Of a DNA stretch of 64,000 bases, positions 4,044-44,148 are shown in pieces. The number at the start of each line of letters is the position of its first letter. Position 1 is the first letter of the stretch. Made by a program: the position numbers and the translations under genes. Where the stretch lies: the NCBI RefSeq assembly GCF_054482595.1, contig NZ_CM137008.1. The stretch is one strand, 5' to 3'. The notes beneath the pieces are model-generated. The model searched no databases, had not been told where the DNA came from, and was given only the letters and a program-made list of their open reading frames with translations.

Positions 4044-4059
4044 TTTACGGAGTTATCAC

Positions 4060-4515: not shown

Positions 4516-4518
4516 GCA

Positions 4519-8201: not shown

Positions 8202-8202
8202 C

Positions 8203-14759: not shown

Positions 14760-17606
14760 TCAGAAAGTCACATTCAGTGTGGCCTGACCGTTATAACCTT
14801 CAGCGCTGCTGCCGCTGACACTGTGGGCATAACCGGCCTGAACGCCCAGGGTGATATTTTCCCGGACACGGGCTTCCAGTCCGGCCTGCAGGTCCAGTGT
14901 CGTGCCATTCCGGGACGGTGAGAACGTCATGTTACTGCCGGCTGCGGCTGTACCCATGCTCATGTCCCCCCGGGAGCTGAAGGTGCGGATAACAGAAGGC
15001 TGTACCCACCAGTTCACCTGCAGTTCACGCACACTGTGTTTGGCACTGTCGCGCAGGGTGTCACGGGATGAGGTGCCTTTACCAAAGTTCATATCGTTGT
15101 GGCTGCCCAGACGGAAGCCGGCACGCACATGTTGTGCACTGCCATGCCCGAACTTCACATAACCGGCGTTATCCTGGCCGTCATCCAGGGAGAGTCCCTG
15201 CCAGGTGTACTGCAGTTGCGGCTCCAGCATCAGATTGTCAGTGATACTGAAGGGCAGACCGGTTTCCAGTGAGCCCAGCCAGCCCCAGCCCCGGGCGCGG
15301 AAGTCGTTATTGTCCGATGACGCTTTCATGCTGTGGCGGGTTCCCTGTGCCACAATGTCAGCCCACAGGCCGGAGGACGTGTGTGTCAGATTCAGGTATC
15401 CGCCCAGGCTGCCGGCATCATCCCGGACCGTGCCGGCGCGGGAACCGTCATCATCCTTAACATCAACGGAAGAATGGCCTGCAGCACCATATACCCCTGT
15501 CGTCAGAGACATACCGGCAACCTCTGTTCTCAGCAGGTCACCCTCCAGACGGACGAAGCCATAGCTGCCGCTGCTTTCCGGCGTGGCTCCACGGGCAATA
15601 CCGCCGTTGTTATCGTGACCGAGATGACCGCCCTGAATGCTGAGACGGACGCTGTTATTTTCACCGTTTACACCGGTCTGATGGCTGCGGGAGCCTGCCA
15701 GAATCCGGTCATAGTCCATTGCCTGTGTCAACATGGATGTATACAGGGGGACTTCAGCACGATAAGCATTTTCACTGCGCAGGTACCAGTCTTCATCGCT
15801 GTCACGGTTCAGGGTGTAGTTAAAGGCGCCGGCCTGAAGCGGGCGACTCAGAGCAAATGCACCTTCTTCTGTGGTGGCACCATTCTGTGCATCCACAACC
15901 CGGATACCCTGTCCGGAGGTTGCCACCCCGAGGTTACTGTTTCCGACATTTGTAAACGCAAGCCAGGTTTTGCCGGTTGCCTGACCACCATTAATCACCA
16001 GCTGGTCAGAGGCATTGCTGCCATCAAGGCGAACACGCATATTGATGGTGCCACCCTGACCGGTGAGGTTACTGGTGGTCAGTTTATGGAACGTTACCGG
16101 GGCGTCGCCTTTTGCAACAGCACGGCTCAGGACGGCATCCTGTGTCGTCTGATTATCAAAGCGAATCTCCCCTGCGTTAACAATATCGCCGGTACTGACC
16201 ACATCACCATTCAGTACCATGCTGGCGCCTTTACTGAGCTGTGTTCTGCCACTCAGACTTCCCCCGGCAGCCAGCGTCAGTGTTCCACGATGTCCGACAG
16301 TGGTGTTGCCAGCCTGTCCCCCGGCATTAACCGTAAAGCTGCCGCCATTTTCCAGCAGCAGGCCGCTGGCCTGACCGGATATGCCATCAATACTGAACTT
16401 ACCGCTGGCATTGGTCCCCTCAACAGTGGCACCACTGTCTGCAATCAGGGCACCACCGGATGTCATGGTGACACCTGTCGCCTTACCACCGGCAGACACT
16501 GCCAGGGTACCGCCGTCATCCACCCGTGTTTTCTGCGCTGAATGACCCTCCAGTACATCCAGACGACCGCCGGACTCCAGAACAACACCGTCAGCCTTAC
16601 CGTTTTCCACCGCGAAATTGCCCAGACGGTTGCTGCCGGTGACGGTTGCCGCCGTACTGGTGACCAGTGCGCCTCCCTGCTTCAGGGTGACATTCGTGGC
16701 TGTACCACCGGCGTTCACCTGCAGTTTGCCTTTCTGGTTAACGGTGGTGAAATCCGCCAGACCACCTTCCTTGATAATCTGCCAGCCGTCACTGTTCACA
16801 ACAGTGTCAGACGTTGTACCTCCGTTGTGCACATACTGGTACCCCCCATTCAGCGTGGTATCCAGTGCGTGACCATGTACCGTCTGGTCGCCGCCGGCAT
16901 AAACCACCGTGGTGTTTGCCACTCCGGTGGCTACCACAATCTGACGACCATTTTTATTGATGGTGGTACGTACGGCATCTCCGCGAACAAACTGTCCGGT
17001 ATCAGCATTTTCCGCATCCGGTCCTCCTTCTGCGCCGGTATTCACAACCGTGTCGGTTGCCATTGCGCCGGATTTGACGGCCTGCCAGCCCTTCTCATTA
17101 ATGACGGTACCCGTTGCAATCCCGCCTTCATGTACCCACTGCTCACCGCCGTTCAGAGTGGTGTTCACTGCCTGCCCCTGAAGGCTCTGTCCTCCTCCGG
17201 CACTGATAACCGTGTCTGAAACGCTTCCTCCGGCATTCACTCTCTGAAGACCACCACCGGTGACAGTAGTGTTGTTGGCGATACCGCCATTTTGTATCCA
17301 TTGTCCGCCGGTATTGGCCTCGTTATCCGGCCCATACTCCAGCCCGGTACTGATGGTCATTCCGTTGGCCGTACCGAGGACAATCTGGTTGTCATGATTT
17401 GTCAGTGTTCCGTCGTTCACGGTTTCTCCCGCCTGTACAACCGTGTCAGCAGCCAGTGCCGGGACTGATGTGACAGCAGCAAGAGACAGTGCAACCGCCA
17501 CACCGGCGCGTTTTCCCCGTGAGCGGGCCAGTTCGGAGGCCACCACCAGGGTGCCCGTAATGTGATTCCATACCAGCCTGTAGCTGGTGTTCAGATGTCG
17601 TTTCAT
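14760..17606 (-). CDS. flu: Antigen 43 (Ag43) self-associating autotransporter adhesin
   Basis: Start at ATG 17606 ([28 protein letters not shown]...); repetitive passenger domain and C-terminal beta-barrel ending ...GQATLNVTF. Confidence 0.92.
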
Positions 17607-17823
17607 CAGCTTTTCCTTACAGAGGGTGAATAAAAAAGCCGGTACCCACAAATGTGGATACCGGCAGGTACAAAACAGCATGGTCAGATAAAGTGGTTTT
17701 TCCCGGGCATAAATGCTTCCCTTCTCTCATCCGCCAGAGAAGTATCAGTCCGTTGTGTGCAATTCCGTTCTGCATGATGAAGAGATTCAGCTGCCTTTTC
17801 GCAGACCATTAACCACTATAAAC

Positions 17824-22721: not shown

Positions 22722-24429
22722 AATATAGCTGCTCTTCTCGCATTTTTGCCGATTTTAAAAATGCGAACAAAACATCCGTACATGATGTACAGATTAAACT
22801 GCCAGGGACTGGTGTCAGAAAACCTCCGGTTAGCCTGCTCTTTCCGGAATGTGCCGGTTATGAAAAACCGGAAATTCAGTCTCTGTTGTAAGATGTACCC
22901 TCTGATACTACGTTTTCGTTTTCTCTGTGTATTTAACTCACTGTATTTATTTTCTTTTTAAGCCTGACTGATATTCTCCGGTCATAGTGTGCCTGATAGA
23001 CATCCCGTAACCTTCTCATTTTTATATAAAAATACCTGCACTGTCTTCAGCGCATCTGTCTCCTTTAAGTAAAAAATGTTTTCACGTATTGCTGTAAATT
23101 CATTTTAAATCAGTATGTTATCCTGATATTGCTGTCTCCTGGTTTGATGCGTAATCGTTCTGCCTTTCTGGATGATTCTGGTGCTTCCGGGTGCATTCTC
23201 CTCTGCACATGCAACAGTTCGTCATCGCCACGTGCCCAAAAGCATATAAAAACGAATCGAATCTGATCGTTTTTTCAATCGTTTTTCACAGGAATTTCGT
23301 AGGGTGTTCTCCGCTATAGCCTCCATATTTGCTGTCTTTTTCTTCATAAATCGTATGCAATATAACCAGTCTGTCAAGACATCTTCCCTGCTGTTGAGGT
23401 GACGATCTCATTTCTGGTCTTTTCCGGGAGAGAGACGGTCAGATGAGCGAGCCGGATTTACTGCCAGAGGTACTCCCCGCGGCAGAAAATAGTGCTCCTG
23501 TTTCCGCAATCCGGGATCGGCAACGTCCCATGGTTAATGCCACTTGCAGCGTCAGGCACTGCAGGTTTACGTCGTGATCTGATTTCTTCTGCACTTATCC
23601 CGATCACGGAAGTTCCCCCTGCGCAGACATCGGTTCCTGCCGACATCTCACAATACCGCCAGGCAGTCATGCAGTAACACCCGCAATGCGGTCTGCGGTT
23701 TTAAGCGCACTCTCCTGTATTCAGTGCACCGATAATGCATCATAGAAAGTCCGGGGGGAGTTACTGAATGTCTGTTAAGTGGTGCCGTGGGTGGAGACTG
23801 CTTACTTTTCCACAGTAACTGCAGTCATTCAGGATGCTCAGGAGAGAATATGTCAACGCCACGGGCCGGGCCATTTTCATGCCAGCCAGGATATTTTCAA
23901 TATTGATGCTGTCTGCTTTTCACCATTTCATCCTCACTGACTGATGTTGTATTTTTGTGCAGCACTACAGATTTGCGTTTCTCTTTTAACTGGTCACGCT
24001 CTCCTTTGATATTCAGCGTGGTTGAGTGATGCAGCAGTTGATTCAGGATTGCTGTTGCCCTGCAACCACCATATCAACTTCTTCCCGGCATGCCGGCGCT
24101 GGTATCCAGGCCGGGTTTCGAAGTGAAGCGTTCCTGACGGACTCATTGATATCCGGGCCGGATGTAGTCATGCAGCATGGAACGTCTACCCGTATACACT
24201 GACGGCGTCCGGCCGTGTACATCTCTTCCGCGGTTCAGGGAGCGCTGTCGCCATGTACTTATTGTCACCAGGAGAGGCATGTACCGCAGCATGCCAGCTC
24301 AGCAGTGACAGGATGCCCTTAAGACATCCGTCATGGCTCAGTATGACGACGCCCCCGCTCTGCAGGTGAGCATGCGGGGCCGGGAGCAGCATTCCCGTAT
24401 TTTGCCGCACCTTCCGGAAGCAACCGGCA

Positions 24430-25047
24430 TCAGTTACGGTTATCGTCAACCGTTGTGCGGTATGCCAGGAGCACGTACTGATCCATCAGATCCGCCAGTG
24501 CTGCGTTCTGCTTCTGACGGTCGATGATCCATTCCCCCAGCTCTTTTTCTGATTTACGTTTCAGGTTCTCCGTCCAGTCGTCAAGGCTGTTTCCGGTCAT
24601 TAAATCAAGCCAGCAAAGCCAGACCAGTTTGAGGCGCAACTCAGTGCCACCAAACTGACGGAAGAGGCTGATCAGTTTATTTGCCAGAGAACGCCGCCTC
24701 AGACGTTCACATTCAGACAGCAGAATGCCTTCCAGCATCGGATGATGAACCAGCAGATGTTCGCTGGTGCATAAGTTCACCACCAGATCATCATCCAGGG
24801 GCGGCGTGGCCCGTTTGTCAGAGCCATAAATCAGCCGGTGCAGACTCCGGGGGACGATGGCAATCTCCGGTTTTTCACCATTGAATGACACCCACCCGGG
24901 CGTCAGATTATGGAAGTAGTGGATATTCGGATGACATACGCCCCAGGATACGGCGTGCCGGGTGAAGCCGGTCAGCCATTTCTGGTAGCTTTCGTGGAGC
25001 AGCTCGTAACGGGTCTGATACTGTGGTTTCATTTTCATATTCCTCAC
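24430..25047 (-). CDS. Hypothetical protein (205 aa) downstream of alpA
   Basis: ORF co-oriented with the AlpA-like gene; not recognised. Confidence 0.5.
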   Translation of the reverse strand: MRNMKMKPQYQTRYELLHESYQKWLTGFTRHAVSWGVCHPNIHYFHNLTPGWVSFNGEKPEIAIVPRSLHRLIYGSDKRATPPLDDDLVVNLCTSEHLLVHHPMLEGILLSECERLRRRSLANKLISLFRQFGGTELRLKLVWLCWLDLMTGNSLDDWTENLKRKSEKELGEWIIDRQKQNAALADLMDQYVLLAYRTTVDDNRN

Positions 25048-25125
25048 GGGGGATAACAGGCAGCAGAACGCCGCCGGCAGGCCGGAGATTGCGTCTGCTG
25101 TGGGTGAAGGGGCAGTGGTTAAAAA

Positions 25126-25335
25126 TTACGGACGGGACTGTGCAATACGCGCCTGCAGCCAGGCTTCCACTTCACTTTTCAGCCAGCGGGAGCTGCGGCC
25201 AAGTTTGATGGGAGCCGGAAAGGCCCCATCCTTGATGAGCTTGTAAAACCACTTATCGGTCAGGCCGGTCAGCTGAGTGATAAACGCCATATCGACCATC
25301 TGGTCATCCATCAGCGAAACTGGGGGGGGGGTCAT
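25126..25335 (-). CDS. alpA: AlpA-family phage/island transcriptional regulator
   Basis: 69 aa with AlpA-type HTH (ITQLTGLTDKWFYKLIKDGAFPAPIKLGRSSRWLKSEVEAWL); codons 2-5 lie within a C10 homopolymer. Confidence 0.8.
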   Translation of the reverse strand: MTPPPVSLMDDQMVDMAFITQLTGLTDKWFYKLIKDGAFPAPIKLGRSSRWLKSEVEAWLQARIAQSRP

Positions 25336-26409
25336 AAAAATCTCCTCCGGATGTTGTTAATCTCAACCGGCGTTGATGATGAAAACAACGCACCACCTTC
25401 ACCGGCATAACAACCGGGGAGAAACGTAAAAAATCAGTAGGGGAATATTCCTGCCAGGAGAGAAACGGTTGTGTACAGGCAATACAGGTTGTCTGTTTTG
25501 TCAGTGAAGCCGGTATAAACGGAAGATGATTTTGTGTTGCCGGAATATGGGATGGTATTTTGTCGTGACGGAATCAGTATTTTCAGTGATGATTATTACT
25601 GCGCAGGGGAGTACCGGAGAGAAACCACGCCCTGTACCTGCCAGAGCGGTGGTTTGTATTGACTGAACGGAAGATAAAGCGAGGTAAACACTGTTGTGGT
25701 GAGCGGAGAAGACTGAGATTATTCTCTGTAATTACAAACAACAGTGATCTTATCCGGTTTTTTTACCGTTACGGGTTTCAGGGGATCAATTTTATAGACC
25801 GGGGTAATGACCACGCCGTAATTTATGGAGAAAAGCGGGATCCAGCAATAAACGTCAGGATATTTCTGTGTCTCCGGAATACCTTTTGTGCCAGAGGCCA
25901 TCAGATCTTTAACGCTCACGAAAAATGACTTCCGCAGATCAAAAAAGTACTCGTTATATATCACATCCTTTGCCAGCAGGATGACTGCATTACCAACAGC
26001 CGATTTTACAGGTGTTTCATCAGGTGGATTATCGTGATTGTATATTGTTCTTTCTATATAAATAAAACAGGCATATTTCGTCTTCTCCCCGGATAGTTGC
26101 ATCTGGTATTCGCAAATGTCTTTGATATACCGACTTTCAACCCTTCCAATCATCTTATCCCGGCGATAGTGTCTTTTATGTTTCAGCGCGTACAGAACAC
26201 CATTTGAACTGTCAAACTCCAGGACACTTCTGGTGAAAAGTTTGTTTTCCCAGATCTCCAGACAATACTTCTCTGCACTGACGACATTGCGTTTGTGGGG
26301 AAGATTCCGTTGATACACTCCATTTAATAAGCGTGACTGCAGTTCGCCTGCAAGTTGATAGTAACAGTTAATGTCATTAAGGACAGGTGCTGTGGCGTTG
26401 GATTTGCCC

Positions 26410-27315
26410 CTATATTTCCAGACACCTGTTATCACTTAACCCATTACTGGCTTGCTGCCGTAGATATTCCCGTGGCGAGCGATAACCCAGTGCACTATGC
26501 GGATGCCATTCGTTATAATGCTCGAATGCCTCTGCAAGGTTCTTTGCTGCCGTTAACCCGTCTGGTTTGGGCATGACACTGATGTAGTCACGCTTTATCG
26601 TTTTCACGAAGCTCTCTGCTATGCCGTTACTCTCCGGACTCCGCACCGCCGTGTTCTTCGGTTCAAGCCCCAACATCCGGGCAAACTGCCGTGTTTCATT
26701 AGCCCGGTAGCATGAACCATTATCCGTCAGCCACTCTACTGGAGACGCCGGAAGCTCGTTGCCGAAACGGCGTTCCACCGCTCCCAGCATGACGTCCTGT
26801 ACTGTTTCACTGTTGAAGCCGCCCGTAGTGACCGCCCAGTGCAGTGCCTCACGGTCACAGCAGTCCAGCGCGAACGTGACTCGCAGTTTTTCTCCGTTAT
26901 CACAGCGGAACTCGAACCCGTCAGAGCACCATCGCTGATTACTTTCTTTCACAGCCACTCTGCCGGTATGTGCCCGTTTCGATGGCGGTACAGCGGGTTT
27001 TCGCTCAAGCAACAGCGCATTCTGGCGCATGATCCGGTAAATACGTTTGGCATTGATCGCAGGCATACCATCAAGTTCGGCCTGTCTGCGAAGCAGCGCC
27101 CATACCCGACGATAACCATATGTGGGCAGCTCTCCGATAACATGGTGTATACGGAGAAGCACATCCGTATCATCTGAGTGACGGCTGCGGCGACCATCTT
27201 TCCAGTCATCGGTTCGTCTGAGAATGACGTGCAACTGCGCACGCGACACCCGGAGACAACGGCTGACTAAGCTTACTCCCCATCCCCGGGCAATAAGGGC
27301 GCGTGCGCTATCCAC
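26410..27315 (-). CDS. insD: IS2 transposase OrfB (InsD), normally expressed by frameshifting from orfA
   Basis: 301 aa with DDE catalytic core, matching IS2 InsD as recalled. Confidence 0.9.
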
Positions 27316-27638
27316 TTTTTTGCACGCCCGTATTCAACGGCTTCTTTAAGGAGTTCATTTTCCATCGTTTTTTTGCCGAGCAGGCGCTGGAGTTCTTTAA
27401 TCTGCTTCATGGCGGCAGCAAGTTCAGAGGCAGGAACGACCTGTTCTCCTGCGGCCACAGCAGTAAGACTTCCCTCCTGGTATTGCTTGCGCCAGAGAAA
27501 TAACTGGCTGGCTGCCACACCGTGTTGCCGGGCAACAAGGGAGACTGTCATTCCCGGTTCAAAACTCTGCTGAACAATAGCGATCTTTTCCTGTGTAGTA
27601 CGCCGTCTGCGTTTCTCCGGTCCTAAGACATCAATCAT
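27273..27638 (-). CDS. insC: IS2 transposase OrfA (InsC)
   Basis: [47 protein letters not shown]... matches IS2 InsC as recalled. Confidence 0.9.
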
Positions 27639-28180
27639 CTGCTCTCCAATGACTAGTCTAAAAACTAGTATTAAGACTATCACTTAAATAAGTGATATTG
27701 GTTGTCTGGAGATTCAGGGGGCCAGTCTAGGCGTTGAGTAATGTGTTGATTACCTTAGAGCGCGAAAGTTTGTGGGTATGACAGTACTCATCCACAATTC
27801 GCAGTGTCTCATCACTGGTCATATTGAAAGTTATACGTGTTGTCATGATGAAGTTTTCTGTTAATCATACTGGTTGATATGCATAACATTTCATAAAAAA
27901 TACTGTTAATTCATATAATTGATTTTTTGACTGGTTTTATCCTCGTGTGGTGGAAAGCAGTATTACTGCCACTGTAGTCAGCATAAATCTATCACACAGA
28001 ACCACCGAAAATGAAGCATTGCTCAGGGGGAAGCTGCCACTCGTATGAGTTCTCTGAACCATGATAACCAGTATTTTTCGTTTTGGGTGATTTGTTTATC
28101 GTTACAGCTACATACAGTTCATGTACCATTAAAAAATAATAAAGGTTAATTAGTATTATTTATAGAAGTATGTTTATGTA

Positions 28181-33799: not shown

Positions 33800-35520
33800 A
33801 TGCATGTGTCAACGACGGATGAAAGTGGCTCTTCCGCAACCTGGGTGGAGATTTTCATGCCAGTGGACTCATTACCCTCTGCCTGAGTAGTTCAAATCCT
33901 GCTCGACCATACATCTGGCGTTTCAGCATCTTCAGGCGATTTACATGACCTTCGACAACACCATTACTCCAGTGACTACTGATTGCCTCACATATAGCTG
34001 CAGCATCAGCTTCCATCCCCGCCGCCACGCGCCGAAATTCTGCTGAACCGCTTTCGTGGACTCGAGTGAACCAACTGCTTAGCTGTGATTTATTTTGGGT
34101 TTTCAGAATACGGTAGAACTCGAGTGCCAGTTGCTGCGCTATTTTCAGCTCAGGTTCTTTTTCACACATCAGACTAATAAATCGGGAAGCATAATTTTCT
34201 TCATCCCTGGTTATTCTCCAGGGCATCAACCAGCGGCTTACCCGGGACACTGAAGGAAGTCTGACGGCAGTAGTAACCGGTGGGTTCCAGCCTTTACGCC
34301 ATTTGGCAACCGCATCCCTGACGATGGTTTCACTGCCTGTAAATCCCCGGGCCACCATTTCCCGCCATATCCGGCTGGCGTTATAATTACCACTTTCTCG
34401 TTGCTCTTTTAACCACTCCCTCCATGGGTCCAGAAGCCCTCGCTTTGGCGGTCGGGTTGACATTTCAGGGAATGTTCCTGAACGCACCCAGCGACTGACT
34501 GTCACACGCGACAGGCCTGTAATACGGGATATTTCCCTGAAACTACATCCCTTGTTATGCAGGGCCATAACCTCTGTCCAACGCTGATGCCGTTTTTTGC
34601 GGGTTTGTTGTTTTAGGCGTTCCGGACGACGGAGCGATGCTGCAGGCACAGATGGTTCTGGATCAGGTGATTTCTTTGGTGACAACTCACTGGCAACAAG
34701 ACGTATCAGAGGTATATGTCTGTACATCATTCGTTCAGGCGCATCGCCAATATTTTTTAGCAGATGCCATCGATCGGCCACCTGTCTGGCCTGAGGTGCA
34801 CCTTCACGTGCTGCTGTCGCATAGACTCCACTGCGATCACGCGAGACAATCTGTATTTCCGGATATTTTCTGAACCAGGTCGCCAGCGTACGCTGATCAC
34901 GGCCGGGAAGCAGGACGAGGGGAGGGTGAGTATCAAGATTGACGATTAACGTACCGTAACGGTGGCCCCGATGCCACGCCCACTCATCAATACCGACATG
35001 AGGCGAGCCTGACTGTTTCGTCTCCGGGGTATTGATAACCCTGCGAAGGAGAGTATCAGCACTGCAACGGAGACCCACTGCCGTTGCTGCCCGTTTCCCG
35101 GCCTCACCTCCGGCGATTAATCCCAGTTGACGTTGTAAATTTTGTAACGCCTGTGAAGACTGTTGGTGTGAACCGGCGAAGGGAGCAAGCGACTCGGCAA
35201 AAATTTTACGTGAACAAGCCGGGTTACGGCAGTACCAGTGGCGGACAGAAAATACAAGCCATAGCGTATGTCCTGAGCAGGGTAGATGCTGTATCCGGCG
35301 CCGACGACAACTATGAACAGAGTCGCTACGCTTAAAGCATTCAGGACATTGTGCTGTTTTGCGTTTTCCGTGGAGATGGAGGGTTATACCGTCAGAGCTA
35401 ATAATTTGTCGACTGCATCGCCATCCGCAAGGTAACTGTAGAAGTGTCTTAAGAGAGTGCATTGCGTTGCCCATGACTTAAAACAGCTTAGATCTTTGTT
35501 CACCAGAAAGTTTCATCCAT
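33800..35520 (-). mobile_element. ISL3-family insertion sequence (approximate ends)
   Basis: Contains a single 539-aa ISL3-type transposase gene; element ends were not mapped. Confidence 0.5.
33855..35474 (-). CDS. ISL3-family transposase
   Basis: N-terminal Cys-rich zinc-finger region, central DDE region and C-terminal SNGVVEGHVNRLKMLKRQMYGRAGFELLRQRVM. Confidence 0.8.
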   Translation of the reverse strand: MGNAMHSLKTLLQLPCGWRCSRQIISSDGITLHLHGKRKTAQCPECFKRSDSVHSCRRRRIQHLPCSGHTLWLVFSVRHWYCRNPACSRKIFAESLAPFAGSHQQSSQALQNLQRQLGLIAGGEAGKRAATAVGLRCSADTLLRRVINTPETKQSGSPHVGIDEWAWHRGHRYGTLIVNLDTHPPLVLLPGRDQRTLATWFRKYPEIQIVSRDRSGVYATAAREGAPQARQVADRWHLLKNIGDAPERMMYRHIPLIRLVASELSPKKSPDPEPSVPAASLRRPERLKQQTRKKRHQRWTEVMALHNKGCSFREISRITGLSRVTVSRWVRSGTFPEMSTRPPKRGLLDPWREWLKEQRESGNYNASRIWREMVARGFTGSETIVRDAVAKWRKGWNPPVTTAVRLPSVSRVSRWLMPWRITRDEENYASRFISLMCEKEPELKIAQQLALEFYRILKTQNKSQLSSWFTRVHESGSAEFRRVAAGMEADAAAICEAISSHWSNGVVEGHVNRLKMLKRQMYGRAGFELLRQRVMSPLA

Positions 35521-35590: not shown

Positions 35591-35859
35591 TACACCAGCG
35601 AAACCACACAGGTAGCTATTACCATATGTGGTAATACACTAGTTACAGGAAAAACATGCAGGTTCCGCAATACGTTGTGTGTTGCTGCTTAGTCAGGATC
35701 TTTTCTTCCATGCGAGATACGACAACACTTTTGAGGAAAGATGTTCACAACTGGTGGGGCGATTGCAACAGGTTTGTGCAGAACTCCCCCCGGATGGCAA
35801 TGCAGGGGGGAAAGGATTTTTCAGGTTGACCGCCCAGGTACATCAAATCAGTATGCTGC

Positions 35860-36585
35860 TCACGCCTGACGGTGCGATGAGTAATGTATTTCATACTCTT
35901 CCCGGTAGAGAGTTTCCCCCCAAAGAACCGGTTTATTCTCAGCAGTCAAATAAGTATGTTGTCGTACCAGAATTGGGCGGGAACGCTTTATTTTCAGCTT
36001 CTGGGCCGCATCCCGGCTGGGCAGCGCCACATGAACCTGGTTGGCAATTGTCTGTATCTCTATGCGAAGTGCCTGCTCAAAAATGTTTTGCAACGCATGG
36101 ACTTCCAGTTCCTGCTTATCTATTTGCAGGGCAAGAATTGAAGGCATATAACGAATTTCGAATGCAATTGGCTGCTGATTTATCAAGCGCAACCTTAACA
36201 GCCGATGGATGCTCTCTTTGCCTGATAACATCAGTTTTGTCCGTAAGAGTTCTGACGTTGAGACAGGTGCGAATTCGACGAGTTGATATTCGAGGTGTTT
36301 GTCGACACCAACCAGATCTTTTTCAAAAAATCCAAGAGATTGCGTATCCATTACGGTGATAATGGAAGGTTTTTTAACGAAGGTTCCACGTCCCCGAATG
36401 CGTTCAATCAATCCATCCGTAAGAAGACCCTGCATCGCATGGACCACTGTCGCTCGGGTGGTATTAAATTGGGCTGCAAGTTCGTTTTCAGAAGGTAAGC
36501 GTTCGCCTTGTTTATATACATTTTGTGCTATTCCATTGCGTAATGCTTCTCTGATCTGCAGGTAAATTGGCAAATTGCGATGCAT
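35860..36585 (-). CDS. GntR-family transcriptional regulator (HutC/UTRA-type)
   Basis: N-terminal winged HTH (LPSENELAAQFNTTRATVVHAMQGLLTDGLIERIRGRGTFV) and a C-terminal effector domain; divergent from the amidohydrolase gene. Confidence 0.85.
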   Translation of the reverse strand: MHRNLPIYLQIREALRNGIAQNVYKQGERLPSENELAAQFNTTRATVVHAMQGLLTDGLIERIRGRGTFVKKPSIITVMDTQSLGFFEKDLVGVDKHLEYQLVEFAPVSTSELLRTKLMLSGKESIHRLLRLRLINQQPIAFEIRYMPSILALQIDKQELEVHALQNIFEQALRIEIQTIANQVHVALPSRDAAQKLKIKRSRPILVRQHTYLTAENKPVLWGETLYREEYEIHYSSHRQA

Positions 36586-36613
36586 GTCAAATTAATCCTT
36601 CATTCTAAGTTGC

Positions 36614-36625
36614 ATAGTCAACTAT
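36614..36625. promoter_or_regulatory. Palindrome ATAGTCAACTAT in the divergent intergenic region; candidate GntR operator
   Basis: Perfect 5-2-5 inverted repeat containing a GT...AC core, between the regulator and the amidohydrolase gene. Confidence 0.3.
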
Positions 36626-36707
36626 ACAACTTCAAGGGTGACGGTATGTCATTTTAGCAGATATCACCTTCAGGTGTGGTCAGTTAAACATAAATGAGTT
36701 AGAGAAA

Positions 36708-37505
36708 ATGATTTTTGATACGCATGCGCATGTTTTTGTTCGAGGATTACCATTAGCGGAACATTGCCGATATGTTCCTGATTACGACGCCACACCGGAG
36801 AGTTATCTGACTCACTTGGATCGGTTTGGCATTGATGTTGGTATTCTGGTGCAACCCAGTTTTCTGGGGACGGATAACCACTATATGCTTGAGGCTCTTC
36901 GCCGTTACCCTACCCGGTTTCGTGGTGTAGCCGTTGTGGATCCAAACATTACGCGCTGTAAACTGGATGAAATGGCAAAATTAGGGGTCACTGGTATCCG
37001 CTTAAATTTAGTCGGCGTGGAAATTCCCGATCTTACGCAACCTGCATGGCAACACCTGTTAGAACATATTAAAGCCCTGGGATGGCATGTTGAGCTACAC
37101 AGAGCTGCGCGCGACTTGCCAGCGTTAATTACGGTATTACTTAAATCCGGTGTAAAGATTGTCGTTGACCATTTCGCGTTGCCTTCTCAGGAAGAGAAAC
37201 AAAACGATCCCGGATTTCAGTTTCTCCTTGAGCATGCAGAAACGCAGCAAATCTGGTTGAAACTTTCTGGCGCCTATCGCAATGGCAGTACTGAAACTCT
37301 CAACGATAACGTGGCACCGTTAATTCCTCTCCTGCTGCAGCATTTTGGACCTGCACATTTATTGTGGGGTAGCGACTGGCCACATACTCGATACGAAAAT
37401 GTCGTCAATTATCAAAAAACGTTCGAGTTACTGACGCAGCAAATACCTGATAAAGAAATGAGAAATAAAATTTTATCGGTTAGTGCAGAATCACTTATCG
37501 ATTAG
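36708..37505 (+). CDS. Amidohydrolase-2 family metal-dependent hydrolase (lactonase/decarboxylase-like)
   Basis: 265 aa with N-terminal HAH (MIFDTHAHVF) and C-terminal GSDWPH motifs typical of TIM-barrel amidohydrolases. Confidence 0.8.
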   Translation: MIFDTHAHVFVRGLPLAEHCRYVPDYDATPESYLTHLDRFGIDVGILVQPSFLGTDNHYMLEALRRYPTRFRGVAVVDPNITRCKLDEMAKLGVTGIRLNLVGVEIPDLTQPAWQHLLEHIKALGWHVELHRAARDLPALITVLLKSGVKIVVDHFALPSQEEKQNDPGFQFLLEHAETQQIWLKLSGAYRNGSTETLNDNVAPLIPLLLQHFGPAHLLWGSDWPHTRYENVVNYQKTFELLTQQIPDKEMRNKILSVSAESLID

Positions 37506-37536
37506 TTGGATTGAGAATATAGTCGAAAGGTATATC

Positions 37537-38886
37537 ATGAGCATATTTTATAAAAAAAGCTGGTACAAGTGGATTGTATTGGTGGTTTGTATTCTTGCCT
37601 ATTCATCAGGAAACCTGGTGCGCTGGAATTATACGGGAATATCGCAATATCTTATTGGTGAATGGCACATTGGAAAAGAAGAATTGGGGATCCTTGGTTC
37701 CGCATTCTTTTATGCCTACGCGATTGGGCAAAGTCCCTGGGGAACACTTACCGATATATTAGGCGGACGCAGAGTTATTTCTATCGGTATTTTAATTACC
37801 GCTATTATGTTCTCTCTCTTTGCTTTTGCGGGTGGCTACCATGCCGCTATCATCATTCGAGTATTAATGGGATTTGTTGGGGCGGCAACATTTGTGCCTT
37901 GTATGGCGGTACTTTCTCGCTGGTTTAGTAAAAAGGAGCGAGGTATGGTGCTGAATATCTTCTCTGGCACAGGTGGTGGATTAGGTGAGCTGTGGTCCTT
38001 TTTATTAATGCCATTGATTTCATTATTTATGGTAGGCGGCGCTACCGTGCTTGGCCTGAGCTCCTGGCGTGCATCTACGCTAATTATGGCGTTTGTCACA
38101 CTGGCGATCATGATCCTCTGTTTTGTCGGTATGCGCTCCGACCCGTCGGAATTAGGTCTTCCGTCCGTTGTTGAACAGGAGACGCGTAAGCAGGCGAAAG
38201 AACATAGCTATGCCAGGACACTGCTTAATGCGTTGCGCGATCCGTGGTTCTGGGTCATTACATTCGCCTGGCAAGGTTTTACCGTTTCTCTGCGTCTGCT
38301 ACCGGCCTGGTTGCCTATCTATGCGGCAGCTTACTACAAACAGACACAGGGATTATCCAGCGTTGAGGCGATGGTCGCAGGAGGTATGATAGCATCAGTG
38401 TATGTTGCCGGACGTATTTTGGGAACGCCTGTCTTTGGCAAATTATCTGACTTTTTGCTTGTCAGTTATAACGTACCAAGAACATTGATTATTGCTTGCT
38501 TCCATATCTTTATTACCGTCTCAATGTTTGCTCTTAGCCATCAAATGCCTTCCACATTTTTATTTGCAGTTCTGGTTTTTGTGATTGGTGCCGCGATAAA
38601 TATGTTCCCTCTGGTTAATGCAGTCGTCGCAGAAATCTGGCCGGTTAAAACGGGGGGCGCGTTAATGGGGATGGTGAATACGGTTGGGCAGTTAATAGGT
38701 GCCTCAGCGTTGGCCTACAGTGGTTTTATGGCAGAAAAATTTTCCATAGCCGGAGCAGGATACAGTTTTGAGTATCGTGGCATTTGGTATTTGGCAATGA
38801 TATTCAGTTCAATATCTATCCTGGCGTCTCTGTTGGCGATGCATCGCGAAAAACAAAGTATTCGGGAAAATGCCTTGAGTCATTAA
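37537..38886 (+). CDS. MFS transporter
   Basis: About 450 aa with roughly 12 hydrophobic segments; ATG at 37537 preceded by AAAGG. Confidence 0.85.
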   Translation: MSIFYKKSWYKWIVLVVCILAYSSGNLVRWNYTGISQYLIGEWHIGKEELGILGSAFFYAYAIGQSPWGTLTDILGGRRVISIGILITAIMFSLFAFAGGYHAAIIIRVLMGFVGAATFVPCMAVLSRWFSKKERGMVLNIFSGTGGGLGELWSFLLMPLISLFMVGGATVLGLSSWRASTLIMAFVTLAIMILCFVGMRSDPSELGLPSVVEQETRKQAKEHSYARTLLNALRDPWFWVITFAWQGFTVSLRLLPAWLPIYAAAYYKQTQGLSSVEAMVAGGMIASVYVAGRILGTPVFGKLSDFLLVSYNVPRTLIIACFHIFITVSMFALSHQMPSTFLFAVLVFVIGAAINMFPLVNAVVAEIWPVKTGGALMGMVNTVGQLIGASALAYSGFMAEKFSIAGAGYSFEYRGIWYLAMIFSSISILASLLAMHREKQSIRENALSH

Positions 38887-38891
38887 GCATA

Positions 38892-39947
38892 ATGTTTAAT
38901 CATATATTTACCCAGGTCAAACGTTCAGAAAATAAAAAAATGGCGGAAATCGCCCAATTCCTGCATGAAAATGATTTGAGCGTTGACACCACTGTCGAAG
39001 TATTTATTACCGTAACCCGCGATGAAAAGCTTATCGCGTGCGGCGGAATTGCCGGAAATATTATTAAATGCGTTGCTATCAGTGAATCCGTTCGCGGTGA
39101 AGGACTGGCGCTGACATTAGCCACCGAACTGATAAACCTCGCCTATGAGCGGCACAGCACGCATCTGTTTATTTATACCAAAACCGAATACGAGGCGCTG
39201 TTCCGCCAGTGCGGTTTTTCCACGCTGACCAGCGTCCCCGGCGTGATGGTGCTGATGGAAAACAGCGCCACGCGACTGAAACGCTATGCCGAATCGCTGA
39301 AAAAATTTCGTCATCCAGGGAACAAGATTGGCTGCATTGTGATGAACGCCAATCCCTTTACGAATGGTCACCGTTATCTGATTCAACAGGCTGCGGCACA
39401 GTGCGACTGGTTGCATCTGTTTTTAGTCAAAGAAGATTCTTCACGCTTCCCCTATGAAGACCGGCTGGATCTGGTGTTAAAAGGCACCGCCGATATTCCA
39501 CGCCTGACCGTGCATCGCGGCTCCGAATACATCATCTCCCGCGCTACGTTCCCTTGCTACTTCATTAAAGAACAGAGCGTCATTAACCATTGTTACACCG
39601 AAATTGATCTGAAGATTTTCCGTCAGTACCTCGCTCCCGCGCTGGGTGTAACTCACCGCTTTGTCGGTACTGAACCCTTTTGTCGCGTTACCGCCCAGTA
39701 CAACCAGGATATGCGCTACTGGCTGGAAACGCCGACTATCTCCGCACCGCCCATCGAACTGGTTGAAATTGAGCGGCTGTGTTACCAGGAGATGCCGATA
39801 TCCGCTTCCCGGGTACGCCAACTGCTGGCGAAAAACGATCTCACGGCTATCGCGCCGCTGGTCCCTGCAGTCACGCTGCATTATTTGCAGAACCTGCTTG
39901 AGCACTCCCGCCAGGACGCGGCAGCTCGTCAAAAGACCCCCGCATGA
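38892..39947 (+). CDS. citC: Citrate lyase ligase CitC
   Basis: Sequence (…VKRSENKKMAEIAQFLHENDLSVDTTVEVFITVTRDEKLIACGG...) matches E. coli CitC as recalled; start codon choice is uncertain. Confidence 0.88.
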   Translation: MFNHIFTQVKRSENKKMAEIAQFLHENDLSVDTTVEVFITVTRDEKLIACGGIAGNIIKCVAISESVRGEGLALTLATELINLAYERHSTHLFIYTKTEYEALFRQCGFSTLTSVPGVMVLMENSATRLKRYAESLKKFRHPGNKIGCIVMNANPFTNGHRYLIQQAAAQCDWLHLFLVKEDSSRFPYEDRLDLVLKGTADIPRLTVHRGSEYIISRATFPCYFIKEQSVINHCYTEIDLKIFRQYLAPALGVTHRFVGTEPFCRVTAQYNQDMRYWLETPTISAPPIELVEIERLCYQEMPISASRVRQLLAKNDLTAIAPLVPAVTLHYLQNLLEHSRQDAAARQKTPA

Positions 39948-39961
39948 GAAACAGGTGAAAA

Positions 39962-40258
39962 ATGAAAATAAACCAGCCCGCCGTTGCAGGCACCCTTGAG
40001 TCTGGGGATGTGATGATACGCATCGCCCCACTCGATACGCAGGATATCGACCTGCAAATCAACAGCAGCGTTGAGAAACAGTTTGGCGATGCCATTCGCA
40101 CCACCATTCTGGACGTTCTCGCCCGCTACAACGTGCGCGGCGTACAGCTGAATGTCGATGACAAAGGCGCACTGGACTGCATTTTACGTGCACGACTGGA
40201 AGCCCTGCTGGCACGCGCCAGCGGTATCCCGGCTCTGCCATGGGAGGATTGCCAATGA
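39962..40258 (+). CDS. citD: Citrate lyase acyl carrier protein CitD
   Basis: 98 aa ([42 protein letters not shown]...). Confidence 0.9.
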
Positions 40259-41163
40259 TTTCCGCTTCGCTGCAACAACGTAAAACTCGCACCCGCCGCA
40301 GTATGTTGTTTGTACCTGGTGCTAATGCCGCGATGGTCAGCAACTCCTTCATCTACCCGGCTGATGCCCTGATGTTTGACCTCGAAGACTCCGTTGCATT
40401 GCGTGAAAAAGACACCGCCCGCCGCATGGTTTACCACGCGCTGCAACATCCGCTTTATCGCGATATTGAAACCATTGTGCGTGTAAACGCGCTGGATTCC
40501 GAATGGGGTGTTAACGACCTGGAAGCCGTCGTTCGCGGTGGTGCGGACGTTGTGCGTCTGCCGAAAACCGATACCGCTCAGGATGTTCTGGATATCGAAA
40601 AAGAGATCCTGCGTATCGAAAAAGCCTGTGGTCGTGAACCCGGCAGTACCGGCCTGCTGGCGGCGATTGAATCTCCGCTGGGCATTACCCGCGCGGTAGA
40701 AATCGCTCACGCTTCCGAGCGTTTGATCGGTATCGCCCTCGGTGCAGAAGACTATGTGCGCAACCTGCGTACAGAACGCTCCCCGGAAGGAACTGAACTG
40801 CTGTTCGCTCGCTGCTCCATTTTGCAGGCCGCGCGTTCTGCGGGTATTCAGGCGTTCGATACCGTCTATTCCGACGCTAACAACGAAGCCGGATTCCTGC
40901 AAGAAGCCGCCCACATCAAACAGCTGGGCTTTGACGGCAAATCGCTGATCAACCCGCGTCAGATTGATCTGCTGCACAACCTCTACGCACCGACCCAGAA
41001 AGAAGTGGATCACGCCCGCCGCGTCGTAGAAGCCGCTGAAGCCGCCGCTCGCGAAGGCCTCGGCGTGGTTTCCCTGAACGGCAAGATGGTGGACGGTCCG
41101 GTTATCGATCGCGCCCGTCTGGTGCTCTCCCGCGCAGAACTTTCCGGCATCCGCGAAGAATAA
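40255..41163 (+). CDS. citE: Citrate lyase beta subunit CitE
   Basis: Start [34 protein letters not shown]...; overlaps citD stop (ATGA). Confidence 0.9.
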
Positions 41164-41173
41164 GGCAATCAAA

Positions 41174-42706: not shown

Positions 42707-42709
42707 GTC

Positions 42710-44123
<1,414 letters not shown>

Positions 44124-44148
44124 ATCATTAATATATCCGGAGTTAACT

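What the first reader, a model, noticed from the sequence alone, without database searches (positions are those of the whole stretch)
25321..25335. C10 homopolymer inside the first codons of the alpA-like regulator
The AlpA-like gene begins ATG ACC CCC CCC CCA (MTPPP), with ten consecutive C residues (G on the plus strand, 25322-25331). Tracts this long are prone to slipped-strand mispairing, so the regulator could be switched on and off by plus or minus 1 frameshifts.
Basis: partly seen in the sequence, partly recalled or inferred. Interest (0 to 1): 0.45.

Follow-up and report, generated by a model that had tools for sequence, protein, structure and literature searches.

The report
Variable poly-C tract in alpA-like gene
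A run of ten C's right after the start codon of a small island-encoded DNA-binding regulator in E. coli is real and differs in length (7 to 11) between closely related strains, so it flips the gene in and out of frame, but it looks like a young, slowly mutating hotspot rather than a proven fast on/off switch.

Summary
G10 lies at 25322-25331 (+), which is C10 in codons 2-5 of a 69-aa AlpA/Xis-family gene (25126-25335, minus strand). It is the only homopolymer of 9 or more bases in the window.

The upstream ATG is the true start. GGAGGAG sits 6 nt before it, and both this motif and the in-frame ATG are kept in every diverged allele examined. M1 is invariant in 35 homologues from Enterobacterales.

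The tract is derived: ancestral ATG ACC ACC CCA became C7 by one A>C change and then expanded. Complete E. coli genomes carry C7 (121), C8 (17), C9 (5), C10 (6) and C11 (1). Metagenome contigs carry C7-C9. Identical flanking haplotypes hold different lengths, while clones sequenced by different laboratories keep one length. The polymorphism is therefore real and heritable, roughly 1000 times faster per site than substitution, but slow.

C7 and C10 are in frame. C8, C9 and C11 give 7-10-aa leader peptides that stop on or beside an internal ATG (M9). Restarting there could still make a 61-aa protein with the whole DNA-binding domain, so "off" may be leaky; this is inferred.

No evidence shows the tract is selected. 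It is a new example of a known mechanism, of modest interest.

The parts
25322..25331 (-). C10 homopolymer (G10 on the + strand) spanning codons 2-5 (ACC CCC CCC CCA = T P P P) of the alpA-like gene. In this window it is in the in-frame state.
   Evidence: Length polymorphism C7-C11 at the same site in other E. coli.
25333..25335 (-). ATG start codon of the alpA-like gene.
   Evidence: Conserved in-frame ATG in all alleles examined. M1 is invariant in 35 homologues.
25342..25348 (-). Shine-Dalgarno sequence GGAGGAG, 6 nt (ATTTTT) upstream of the ATG.
   Evidence: Read directly. The motif is kept as GGAGGA (GGAGAAG, one mismatch, in L010) at the same distance in alleles whose surrounding 5' sequence has diverged.
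25126..25335 (-). alpA-like CDS, 69 aa, an AlpA/Xis-type winged-helix DNA-binding protein.
   Evidence: ORF. Pfam PF05930 residues 13-60 and PF12728. PHROG 'excisionase and transcriptional regulator'. Weak sequence matches to PDB 8C3T (AlpA family) and 1Z4H (TorI).
25309..25311 (-). Internal in-frame ATG (M9). The C9/C12-frame leader ORF stops at a TGA that overlaps it (UGAUG). The C8/C11-frame leader stops 2 nt downstream of it. NCBI's annotation pipeline starts the gene here (61 aa) in C8, C9 and C11 genomes.
   Evidence: frame table. (61-aa WP_001341133.1 annotated in C11, C9 and C8 genomes).
25297..25299 (-). Second internal in-frame ATG (M13), 4 nt downstream of the C8/C11-frame leader stop codon. 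It still precedes the Pfam domain.
25304..25408 (-). 34-aa ORF (MPVKV...) that overlaps the SD, start and tract in another frame. It would fuse in frame with alpA at C9 or C12. It is the source of the 92-115-aa database gene calls and is probably not a real gene.
   Evidence: P0001, P0003 and P0017.
24430..25038 (-). Downstream co-oriented gene (about 202 aa, no family match), always adjacent to the alpA-like gene and probably in the same transcription unit.
   Evidence: Synteny in every locus fetched. No Pfam, NCBIfam or PHROG hit.
25719..26400 (-). Upstream co-oriented yagM-like gene (PF27701/UCP007319). In this window its 5' end is cut off by IS2.
   Evidence: 'YagM family protein'; PF27701; breakpoint at 26400.
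26401..27736 (-). IS2 insertion (1,336 nt including the target duplication), 1,065 nt upstream of the alpA ATG, with its transposase genes in the same orientation as alpA.
   Evidence: IS2 TnpA/TnpB. (boundaries by comparison with L001).

Best explanation
The C10 run is a genuine slippage-prone homopolymer that arose recently inside the first codons of an island-borne AlpA/Xis-family regulator gene.

Origin. One A>C substitution turned the ancestral ATG ACC ACC CCA (MTTP) into ATG ACC CCC CCA (C7). Replication slippage then lengthened the run stepwise to C8, C9, C10 and C11 in different E. coli lineages.

Effect on reading frame. The run lies between the real start codon and the DNA-binding domain, so each one-base change moves the gene between three frames. 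At C7, C10 and C13, ribosomes loaded at the strong SD translate the full protein. At C10 the N-terminus is Thr-Pro-Pro-Pro. At C8 and C11, or at C9 and C12, the same ribosomes make a 7-10-residue peptide. That peptide terminates on or next to an in-frame internal ATG (M9, with M13 close by).

Inferred consequence. Out-of-frame alleles lose most, but probably not all, AlpA synthesis. Termination-reinitiation could still give a 61-aa protein with an intact domain.

Rate. The switch operates on the time scale of clonal divergence, at roughly 1000 times the per-site substitution rate. It is not rapid within-culture phase variation.

Most likely nature. It is a mutational by-product in a decaying, IS-riddled island, not a selected contingency locus. 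The window carries the in-frame (ON) C10 allele.

Shown: the tract, the start codon, the polymorphism, and the frame consequences at sequence level. Inferred: the expression effects, the reinitiation, the rate in absolute terms, and the lack of adaptive value.
For: Tract and gene.

True start upstream of the tract:
- The SD motif (GGAGGA; GGAGAAG in one allele) and the in-frame ATG are kept in six alleles with diverged 5' regions and with codon-level changes (ACC ACC CCA; GCT ACC CCA; GCT ACC CCT).
- In 35 homologues from Klebsiella, Citrobacter, Enterobacter, Cronobacter, Dickeya, Pectobacterium, Providencia and others, M1 is invariant, the usual length is 68 aa, and positions 9 and 13 are Leu or Phe, not Met.

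Derived origin: strain 536 and O104:H4 carry ATGACCACCCCAG. The MTTPV protein is on at least 1000 contigs, against 286 for MTPPV and 137 for MTPPPV.

Length polymorphism:
- In 5,426 complete genomes: C7 in 121 records; C8 in 17, C9 in 5, C10 in 6 and C11 in 1, all with identical 45-nt flanks. Sequences were read directly for 20 of them.
- Short-read-style metagenome contigs: C7 x2, C8 x3, C9 x2. Further draft assemblies: C8 and C9.

Recurrent change on one background:
- Over 150 nt upstream plus 1,050 nt downstream, one haplotype holds C10 x5 and C11 x1. Another holds C9 x5 and C8 x1. The two assemblies of NCTC86 hold C7 and C8. C8 and C9 also occur on other mosaic backgrounds.
- Among 19 loci of the window's haplotype group there are only 5 variable nucleotide columns in 1,200 nt, against at least 4 tract changes. 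Three 6-nt homopolymers nearby never vary.

Not random assembly noise: five of the six C10 genomes (China, USA) were fetched. They and the window share one haplotype and are near-identical over 4 kb downstream (four identical; L019 differs at 8 positions). The 5 C9 genomes (Korea, Italy, Thailand and one more) keep one length; the four whose flanks were fetched share one haplotype.

Frame consequences. The annotation pipeline falls back to the 61-aa M9 start in C8, C9 and C11 genomes. The 61-aa product is on 748 contigs.

Domain starts after M9: Pfam residues 13-60. The TorI alignment begins at query residue 8.

Background:
- Indel rates in E. coli rise exponentially with run length, and 8-bp G.C runs are already outliers in the K-12 genome (PMC8510543).
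- A 5' poly(A) tract in Listeria inlA gives an 8-aa peptide and mutates about 1000-fold faster than point mutation (PMC2831843).
Against: - No expression or within-population data exist. Reinitiation at M9 is inferred only from geometry, and a stop within 10 codons in each alternative frame is expected by chance in roughly a third of cases.
- Out-of-frame alleles are common and fixed in clones: 23 of the 29 expanded (C8-C11) alleles among complete genomes, and 748 contigs with the 61-aa call. This fits a tolerated leaky OFF, but it fits a dispensable gene equally well.
- The NCTC86 C7/C8 discrepancy could be a long-read homopolymer error rather than biology.
- The structure model was too poor (mean pLDDT 57.9) to say whether residues 1-8 matter.
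- L8 is nearly invariant in the family and would be lost in the 61-aa form.
Confidence: 0.65

Rival explanations
1. Adaptive contingency locus. The tract is maintained by selection as a true phase-variation switch. It stochastically turns the AlpA-like regulator on and off, and with it island gene expression or excision, as poly-G/C tracts do in Neisseria, Haemophilus and Campylobacter.
For: - The location is classical: within the first codons, downstream of a strong SD.
- Several lengths in all three frames circulate.
- The tract has kept expanding rather than being interrupted.
- A second 'A-less' series exists: ATG-C8 on 184 contigs, ATG-C10, and ATG-C11 on 3 contigs.
- ATG-C8 restores the frame on the haplotype group in which C8 is the shortest member seen among complete genomes.
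Against: - The tract is absent from the ancestral and most common allele and from all other genera. About 150 of 5,426 complete genomes carry C7 or longer.
- Length is fixed within clones sampled on different continents, so switching is slow.
- The length distribution decays from C7 as a neutral stepwise walk would, with no enrichment of in-frame lengths.
- The island is degraded: integrase remnant, IS2, IS3, ISEc38.
- E. coli coding sequences generally avoid such runs (PMC1378130).
Confidence: 0.15
2. Transcriptional slippage buffers the genotype. RNA polymerase stutters on the 8-11-nt run and produces mRNAs with one more or one fewer C. Every allele then yields a mixture of in-frame and out-of-frame messages, and DNA tract length matters little.
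For: This rests only on general knowledge that bacterial RNA polymerases slip on long homopolymers, best documented for runs of nine or more A or T. It would explain why out-of-frame alleles persist in clones without further decay of the ORF.
Against: Nothing in these data tests it. From general knowledge, slippage is weaker on C/G runs because the rC:dG hybrid is stable. The alleles are too young for the lack of ORF decay to be informative: there are no substitutions in alpA within the haplotype group.
Confidence: 0.1
3. The real start codon is the internal ATG (M9) and the tract lies in the 5' untranslated leader. Length changes would then not frameshift the protein. At most they would alter a short upstream ORF.
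For: NCBI's pipeline annotates the 61-aa M9 product without a pseudogene flag in C8, C9 and C11 genomes. The Pfam domain begins at residue 13.
Against: - No purine-rich SD precedes M9 (sequence), whereas GGAGGAG lies 6 nt before the upstream ATG and is conserved.
- Homologues in other genera have Leu at position 9 and Phe or Leu at 13, yet keep M1 and a 68-aa length.
- Codon-level conservation (T/A-T-P-V-S-L) holds between M1 and M9.
Confidence: 0.07
4. Sequencing or assembly artefact. The run is really one fixed length, and the apparent C7-C11 series reflects homopolymer miscalls.
For: Long-read platforms miscall G/C homopolymers. Two assemblies of NCTC86 disagree, C7 against C8.
Against: - Lengths co-segregate with flanking SNP haplotypes and are reproduced in independent projects.
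- C8 and C9 appear in SPAdes-type metagenome contigs.
- The C10-encoded MTPPPV protein is on 137 contigs and the 61-aa form on 748.
- Neighbouring 6-nt runs never vary in the same assemblies.
Confidence: 0.03

Closest known systems
Homopolymeric-tract frameshift switches in the 5' coding region. Examples: the Listeria monocytogenes inlA 5' poly(A) tract (PMC2831843), homopolymeric tracts in Bordetella pertussis (PMC1891110), and poly-G/C contingency loci of Neisseria, Haemophilus and Campylobacter.
   Same: A mononucleotide run lies within the first codons. One-base slippage yields a peptide of about 8 aa instead of the protein. Strain-to-strain length polymorphism arises repeatedly. The per-site rate is about 1000 times that of point mutation, which is my rough estimate here and the measured figure for inlA.
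   Different: The host is mismatch-repair-proficient E. coli, which has few such loci. The tract is young and present in only a small minority of strains. Switching seems slow, at clone level. The geometry allows reinitiation at an internal ATG, so the OFF state may be leaky. The gene affected is a mobile-element regulator, not a surface structure.
Reversible A7/A6 frameshift in kpsC of ExPEC K96 capsule loci (PMC13410964).
   Same: This is an E. coli example of rare slipped-strand mispairing in a coding homopolymer. It is seen both in laboratory mutants and in natural genomes.
   Different: That case has experimental reversion data and a phenotype (capsule loss). The run is shorter and made of A, it sits mid-gene, and it has two states only.
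AlpA / Xis (PF05930) proteins of integrative elements: CP4-57 AlpA, KplE1 TorI (PDB 1Z4H), and PICI master regulator AlpA (PMC11773190).
   Same: A winged-helix protein of about 70 aa with a PF05930 match, encoded on a tRNA-associated island and followed by island backbone genes. The family acts either as a transcriptional activator of element genes or as an excisionase.
   Different: Sequence similarity to characterised members is weak (E about 1e-3 to solved structures). The gene is not adjacent to an integrase in the parts examined. Its target and activity are unknown. PMC11773190 itself notes that the 'AlpA family' label lumps together functionally different subfamilies.
Termination-reinitiation (translational coupling) at overlapping stop and start codons such as UGAUG in bacterial operons.
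   Same: In the C9/C12 frame the leader ORF's UGA overlaps the AUG of M9 (UGAUG). In the C8/C11 frame the stop lies 2 nt after M9 and 4 nt before M13.
   Different: Here the arrangement is accidental. It pre-exists in the ancestral sequence and is specific to E. coli alleles. Its use is untested.

Membership tests
AlpA / excisionase-type winged-helix proteins (Pfam PF05930 Phage_AlpA; TIGR01764 'excise') | Significant match to the family profile over the whole domain. | tested here: met
   PF05930 i-E 5.3e-9, residues 13-60 = model 3-51 of 51. PF12728 HTH_17 7e-7. TIGR01764 scores only 21.9 bits, below its 28.8 cut-off. PHROG 66 and 2790 'excisionase and transcriptional regulator'.
AlpA / excisionase-type winged-helix proteins (Pfam PF05930 Phage_AlpA; TIGR01764 'excise') | Small (about 60-80 aa) single-domain protein encoded on an integrative mobile element. 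| tested here: met
   69 aa. It lies in an island with Ag43, YeeP-like GTPase, KlcA, RadC-like, CbeA/CbtA and YagK/YfjJ genes and many IS elements.
AlpA / excisionase-type winged-helix proteins (Pfam PF05930 Phage_AlpA; TIGR01764 'excise') | Partnership with a cognate tyrosine integrase (adjacent, or in the same element). | tested here: inconclusive
   Only a frameshifted integrase remnant is annotated at the cadC end of the equivalent island in SM107. The tRNA-proximal end lies outside the window, which contains no tRNA.
AlpA / excisionase-type winged-helix proteins (Pfam PF05930 Phage_AlpA; TIGR01764 'excise') | DNA binding that activates element genes or directs excision. | not testable with these tools
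   No experimental data on this subfamily were found in the literature searches.
Slipped-strand (simple sequence repeat) phase-variable contingency locus | The repeat tract is placed so that unit changes alter expression, i.e. inside the CDS downstream of the true start, or in the promoter. | tested here: met
   The tract occupies codons 2-5 downstream of the conserved SD and ATG.
Slipped-strand (simple sequence repeat) phase-variable contingency locus | Tract length is polymorphic among closely related strains, with recurrent independent changes. | tested here: met
   C7-C11 occur on identical flanks. Different lengths sit within single haplotypes. There are at least 4 changes against 5 SNPs in 1.2 kb.
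Slipped-strand (simple sequence repeat) phase-variable contingency locus | High-frequency, reversible switching within a clonal population (typically above about 1e-5 per division). | not testable with these tools
   Only consensus assemblies are available. Indirectly, length is stable within clones from different laboratories and continents, which argues for a low rate. The NCTC86 pair differs, C7 against C8.
Slipped-strand (simple sequence repeat) phase-variable contingency locus | A demonstrated ON/OFF change in gene product or phenotype. | not testable with these tools
   None available. Predicted SD accessibility does not change with tract length. Possible reinitiation at M9 is inference.
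Slipped-strand (simple sequence repeat) phase-variable contingency locus | The repeat is maintained by selection: conserved as a repeat across lineages or orthologues. | tested here: not met
   The ancestral and commonest allele has the interrupted ACCACCCCA. Other alleles have GCTACCCCA or GCTACCCCT. Other genera have unrelated codons.

The most novel reading that the evidence does not exclude
The tract is a working three-state translational dimmer for an island master regulator in E. coli.
- In-frame lengths (C7, C10) give full-length AlpA. C10 adds an EF-P-dependent Pro-Pro-Pro start.
- The two out-of-frame classes give different low levels of a 61-aa AlpA through leader-peptide termination-reinitiation: UGAUG overlap in one class, a nearby stop in the other.
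- Lineages would thereby tune, heritably and reversibly, the expression or excision of a pheV/pheU-type island that also carries the phase-variable adhesin Ag43.

This would be one of very few simple-repeat contingency loci in E. coli, and the first to control a mobile-element regulator.
Probability: 0.12. Interest if true: 0.6.

Novelty: new member of a known kind. Interest (0 to 1): 0.35.

Why it matters
E. coli is usually regarded as nearly free of simple-repeat contingency loci, and its genes avoid long mononucleotide runs. This locus shows the birth of such a tract in nature: one substitution joins two short C runs, and expansion then runs from C7 to C11. The tract sits in the first codons of a mobile-island regulator.

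There are two practical points:
- This gene is annotated as 61, 68, 69 or 92-115 aa depending on tract length and gene caller. Pan-genome and presence/absence analyses will therefore split one gene into several.
- Tract length is a fast-evolving marker that separates otherwise identical island haplotypes.

If the AlpA-like protein controls island genes or excision, strains with different tract lengths would differ heritably in island behaviour. That remains to be shown.

Tried and rejected
- SD sequestration by the C-run. The terminator scan flagged G-run/CTCCTCC pairing on the + strand. Folding the mRNA leader for the ancestral allele and for C7-C12 gave the same energy (-22.9 to -23.7 kcal/mol) and the same mean unpaired probability of the SD (0.37-0.41). 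Rejected.
- Known RNA element or promoter near the tract. Rfam at E<=1 over 23000-28000 found nothing. The sigma-70 consensus scan over 24900-25800 found nothing, so the promoter is unidentified.
- Function of the neighbours. The about 202-aa downstream protein and the yagM-like protein have no NCBIfam, PHROG or Pfam-A hit from my searches. The only lead is the precomputed PF27701 on the upstream gene.
- Structure. AlphaFold2 with a 35-sequence alignment gave mean pLDDT 57.9. That is too poor to judge the N-terminal tail, so no fold search was run.
- Exact source strain. No complete genome has the window's IS2/yagM configuration in one piece.
- Literature. Four full-text searches found no description of this tract or of phase variation in an AlpA-family gene. 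The 'AlpA' hits were the unrelated Helicobacter adhesin.
- Single or repeated origin of the A>C change. The C7 alleles sit on two very different downstream haplotypes, with IKMGRS against IKLGRS protein bodies. Recombination and recurrence could not be told apart.
- C13 (MTPPPPV) and C4 (MTPV) products are not in the 15-billion-protein collection.

Full report
**1. The observation**

The + strand at 25301-25360 reads TGGTCATCCATCAGCGAAACT-G10-TCATAAAAATCTCCTCCGGATG.... On the minus strand this is GGAGGAG ATTTTT ATG ACC CCC CCC CCA GTT TCG CTG ATG GAT GAC CAG ATG. G10 occupies exactly 25322-25331. The ATG is at 25335-25333. The ORF 25126-25335(-) encodes MTPPPVSLMDDQMVDMAFITQLTGLTDKWFYKLIKDGAFPAPIKLGRSSRWLKSEVEAWLQARIAQSRP.

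It is the only homopolymer of 9 or more bases in the window. An i.i.d. model expects 0.056 such G-runs. Dinucleotide-preserving shuffles give a mean of 0.16, and 12 of 100 shuffles have at least one. All four C7 matches in the window belong to this one tract, whereas shuffles give about 6. So the run stands out in a sequence that otherwise lacks G/C runs.

The protein matches Pfam PF05930 (Phage_AlpA) over residues 13-60 and also HTH_17. It matches PHROG families named 'excisionase and transcriptional regulator'. It matches weakly the solved AlpA-family protein 8C3T and the excisionase TorI 1Z4H.

**2. Where translation starts**

Three lines of evidence place it upstream.
- GGAGGAG lies 6 nt before the upstream ATG. 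Nothing purine-rich precedes the internal ATGs.
- Six alleles from other E. coli islands have otherwise diverged 5' regions (ggaggagatttttATG, ggaggaacattctcATG and ggagaagatttttATG). All keep the SD-like motif, its spacing and the in-frame ATG. The codons after the ATG vary in a coding manner: ACC ACC CCA, GCT ACC CCA, GCT ACC CCT.
- The family is widespread in Enterobacterales, usually at 68 aa. In an alignment of 35 members M1 is invariant. Positions 9 and 13, which are Met in E. coli, are Leu and Phe or Leu elsewhere.

The tract is therefore inside the coding region.

**3. Origin of the tract**

Strain 536, O104:H4 and many others carry ATG ACC ACC CCA GTT (MTTPV). A single A>C change gives ATG ACC CCC CCA (C7, MTPPV).

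In a collection of about 15 billion proteins, contig counts are as follows:

| Product | Tract state | Contigs |
|---|---|---|
| MTPPV | C7 | 286 |
| MTPPPV | C10, as in the window | 137 |
| MPPPV | 'A-less' ATG-C8 | 184 |
| MPPPPV | 'A-less' ATG-C11 | 3 |
| 61-aa product called from M9 | out-of-frame lengths | 748 |
| MTPPPPV / MTPV | C13 / C4 | absent |

**4.

Megablast of the 601-bp locus against 5,426 complete E. coli genomes returned near-identical hits whose spans differed by single bases. A 104-nt probe with identical 45-nt flanks gave C9 x5, C10 x6, C8 x17 and C11 x1. A 66-nt C7 probe matched 121 records exactly.

I fetched 20 of these loci and read the tract directly:
- C10 in L001 and L018-L020
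- C11 in L002
- C9 in L003 and L021-L023
- C8 in L004 and L024-L028
- C7 in L029-L031
- ATG-C8 in L005

A pattern scan of 241 million metagenome records found seven contigs: C7 x2, C8 x3 and C9 x2, several with SPAdes-style names. Draft assemblies that encode the 61-aa product added more C8 and C9.

**5. Real and recurrent, or artefact?**

I aligned 150 nt upstream and 1,050 nt downstream with the tract removed. This gave 11 haplotypes:
- One haplotype contains C10 x5 (including the window) and C11 x1.
- One contains C9 x5 and C8 x1.
- Two contain only C8.
- The two assemblies of NCTC86 are identical in their flanks but have C7 and C8.
- C8 and C9 also occur on two further mosaic backgrounds.

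Five of the six C10 genomes were fetched. They and the window share one haplotype and are near-identical over 4 kb downstream; four are identical and L019 differs at 8 positions. The four C9 genomes whose flanks were fetched share one haplotype and IS3 arrangement. They come from different countries and projects. Length therefore co-segregates with lineage, which random homopolymer miscalls would not produce.

Within the window's haplotype group (19 loci) only 5 nucleotide columns vary in 1,200 nt. In 2,250 nt downstream there are 8 SNPs and one gap column, and three 6-nt homopolymers never vary. The tract has changed at least four times. That puts its per-site rate about three orders of magnitude above substitution. 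The same order was measured for the 5' poly(A) tract of Listeria inlA (PMC2831843).

This agrees with published work. Indel rates in E. coli rise exponentially with run length, and 8-bp G.C runs are already outliers in the K-12 genome (PMC8510543). Clonal stability also means switching is slow. This is microevolution between clones, not demonstrated within-culture phase variation. The NCTC86 pair could be either a real change or a long-read error.

**6. Consequences for the reading frame**

| Tract length | Product from the upstream ATG | Stop position relative to internal ATGs |
|---|---|---|
| C7, C10, C13 | 68-70-aa protein | none (in frame) |
| C8, C11 | MTPP(P)SFADG* | stop lies 2 nt after the M9 ATG and 4 nt before the M13 ATG |
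| C9, C12 | MTPP(P)QFR* | UGA overlaps the M9 AUG (UGAUG) |

NCBI's pipeline annotates the 61-aa M9 product, without a pseudogene flag, in the C8, C9 and C11 genomes.

The Pfam domain starts at residue 13, and the TorI alignment starts at residue 8. A 61-aa product would therefore keep the DNA-binding fold. It would lose the variable MTTPV and the conserved S-L.

I infer that out-of-frame alleles are strongly reduced but possibly not null, through termination-reinitiation. This is geometry, not measurement, and the stops pre-exist in the ancestral sequence.

The in-frame C10 allele of the window encodes Thr-Pro-Pro-Pro at residues 2-5. From general knowledge of EF-P, such a motif near the start tends to stall ribosomes. 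Even ON alleles (C7 against C10) may therefore differ in output; this too is inference.

Predicted mRNA folding shows no length-dependent masking of the SD.

**7. Context**

The gene sits between a yagM-like gene and a conserved gene of about 202 aa of unknown family, in every locus examined. The island has the CP4-44/CP4-6 type of backbone: YagK/YfjJ (inovirus Gp2-like) genes, Hha/YmoA, a YeeP-like GTPase, Ag43, DUF905, DUF932, KlcA, a RadC-like protein and CbeA/CbtA. Its cargo is citCDEFXG, an acnB paralogue and several IS elements.

In SM107 and Santai the island abuts cadC, and only a frameshifted integrase remnant is annotated there. In the window it abuts the T2SS gene yghD. The window contains no tRNA, so the tRNA-proximal end lies outside it. 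An IS2 (26401-27736) interrupts the yagM-like gene 1,065 nt upstream of alpA.

AlpA-family proteins are either activators of element genes or excisionases, and the label covers functionally different subfamilies (PMC11773190). Nothing is known about this subfamily.

**8. Adaptive or not**

The evidence points against a selected contingency locus:
- The tract is absent from the ancestral allele, from other alleles and from other genera.
- About 150 of 5,426 complete genomes carry C7 or longer.
- The length distribution falls off from C7 as a neutral stepwise walk would (121, 17, 5, 6, 1), with no enrichment of in-frame lengths.
- Out-of-frame alleles are fixed in successful clones.
- The island is decaying.
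- Genomes in general select against such runs (PMC1378130).

The only hint the other way is the ATG-C8 allele (MPPPV, 184 contigs). It is in frame, and it lies on the haplotype group where C8 is the shortest A-Cn length seen among complete genomes. It could therefore be a frame-restoring loss of the A. It could equally be an A>C substitution in a C7 allele, and C7 with this protein body does exist (286 contigs).

**9. Verdict**

- Correct: the tract is slippage-prone, length-polymorphic and frame-shifting, and the start codon call is right.
- Unproven: that it gives a clean on/off switch, that it switches fast, or that it is selected.

It is a new example of a known mechanism in a species where such loci are rare. 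It is of modest interest, and it is useful as a caution for annotation and pan-genome work.

Noticed in passing
window 26401-27736: An IS2 copy (1,336 nt with target duplication) is inserted in the 5' part of the yagM-like gene, 1,065 nt upstream of the alpA ATG and in the same orientation. No complete E. coli genome shows this exact configuration. Other strains carry IS3-family insertions at different points just upstream of alpA, for example GTEN_97 and NCTC86. The alpA upstream region appears to be an IS hotspot, and read-through or hybrid promoters might drive alpA.
   Followed up: partly
window 25304-25408 (-): A 34-aa ORF (MPVKVVRCFHHQRRLRLTTSGGDFYDPPPSFADG) overlaps the alpA SD, start and tract. 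In some alleles this upstream ORF is in frame with alpA, and by frame arithmetic the same holds at C9 or C12. Database gene calls of 92-115 aa for the same gene come from such upstream starts. One gene therefore appears under at least five lengths (61, 68, 69, 92/93, 115 aa).
   Followed up: partly
L005 (NZ_CP097170.1) tract; proteins P0122, P0124, P0001: A second, 'A-less' tract series exists: ATG-C8 (MPPPV, 184 contigs), ATG-C10 (P0001) and ATG-C11 (MPPPPV, 3 contigs). ATG-C8 is in frame and could be a frame-restoring derivative of the out-of-frame A-C8 allele.
   Followed up: partly
L028 (NZ_LR217818.1) vs L029 (NZ_CP019778.1): Two assemblies of the historic strain NCTC86 have identical flanks but C8 and C7 respectively. 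This is either a genuine change between stocks or a long-read homopolymer error.
   Followed up: no
window 29-8739 vs L018 37381-40601: In the window the island abuts the type II secretion genes gspD..gspM/yghD (the pheV neighbourhood). In Santai and SM107 the identical alpA module, with 4 kb of downstream sequence 100% identical, lies next to cadC (the pheU neighbourhood). The same island module occupies two Phe-tRNA-associated sites in different strains. The window contains no tRNA gene.
   Followed up: partly
window 14760-17681 (-): An Ag43/Cah autotransporter gene, classically phase-variable through Dam/OxyR, lies about 8 kb downstream in the same island and in the same orientation as the alpA-like gene.
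   Followed up: no
window 35679-46746: The island cargo includes a GntR regulator, an amidohydrolase, an MFS transporter, a full citCDEFXG citrate-lyase cluster and an acnB paralogue. It is bounded by ISEc38 (33855-35474) and IS66 fragments (46995-47531, 56496-57191).
   Followed up: no
window, whole: Apart from the tract there is no C or G run of 7 or more in 64 kb, although dinucleotide shuffles give about 6 C7 matches. All other runs of 7 or more are A or T, at most 8 long.
   Followed up: yes
L031, L029, L030, L011, L014 vs window 25126-25335: C7 alleles in these loci sit on a very different downstream haplotype (protein body IKMGRS instead of IKLGRS, and a different allele of the downstream gene). 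Even so, the 45 nt on each side of the tract are identical. This implies either recombination within alpA or a recurrent A>C change.
   Followed up: partly
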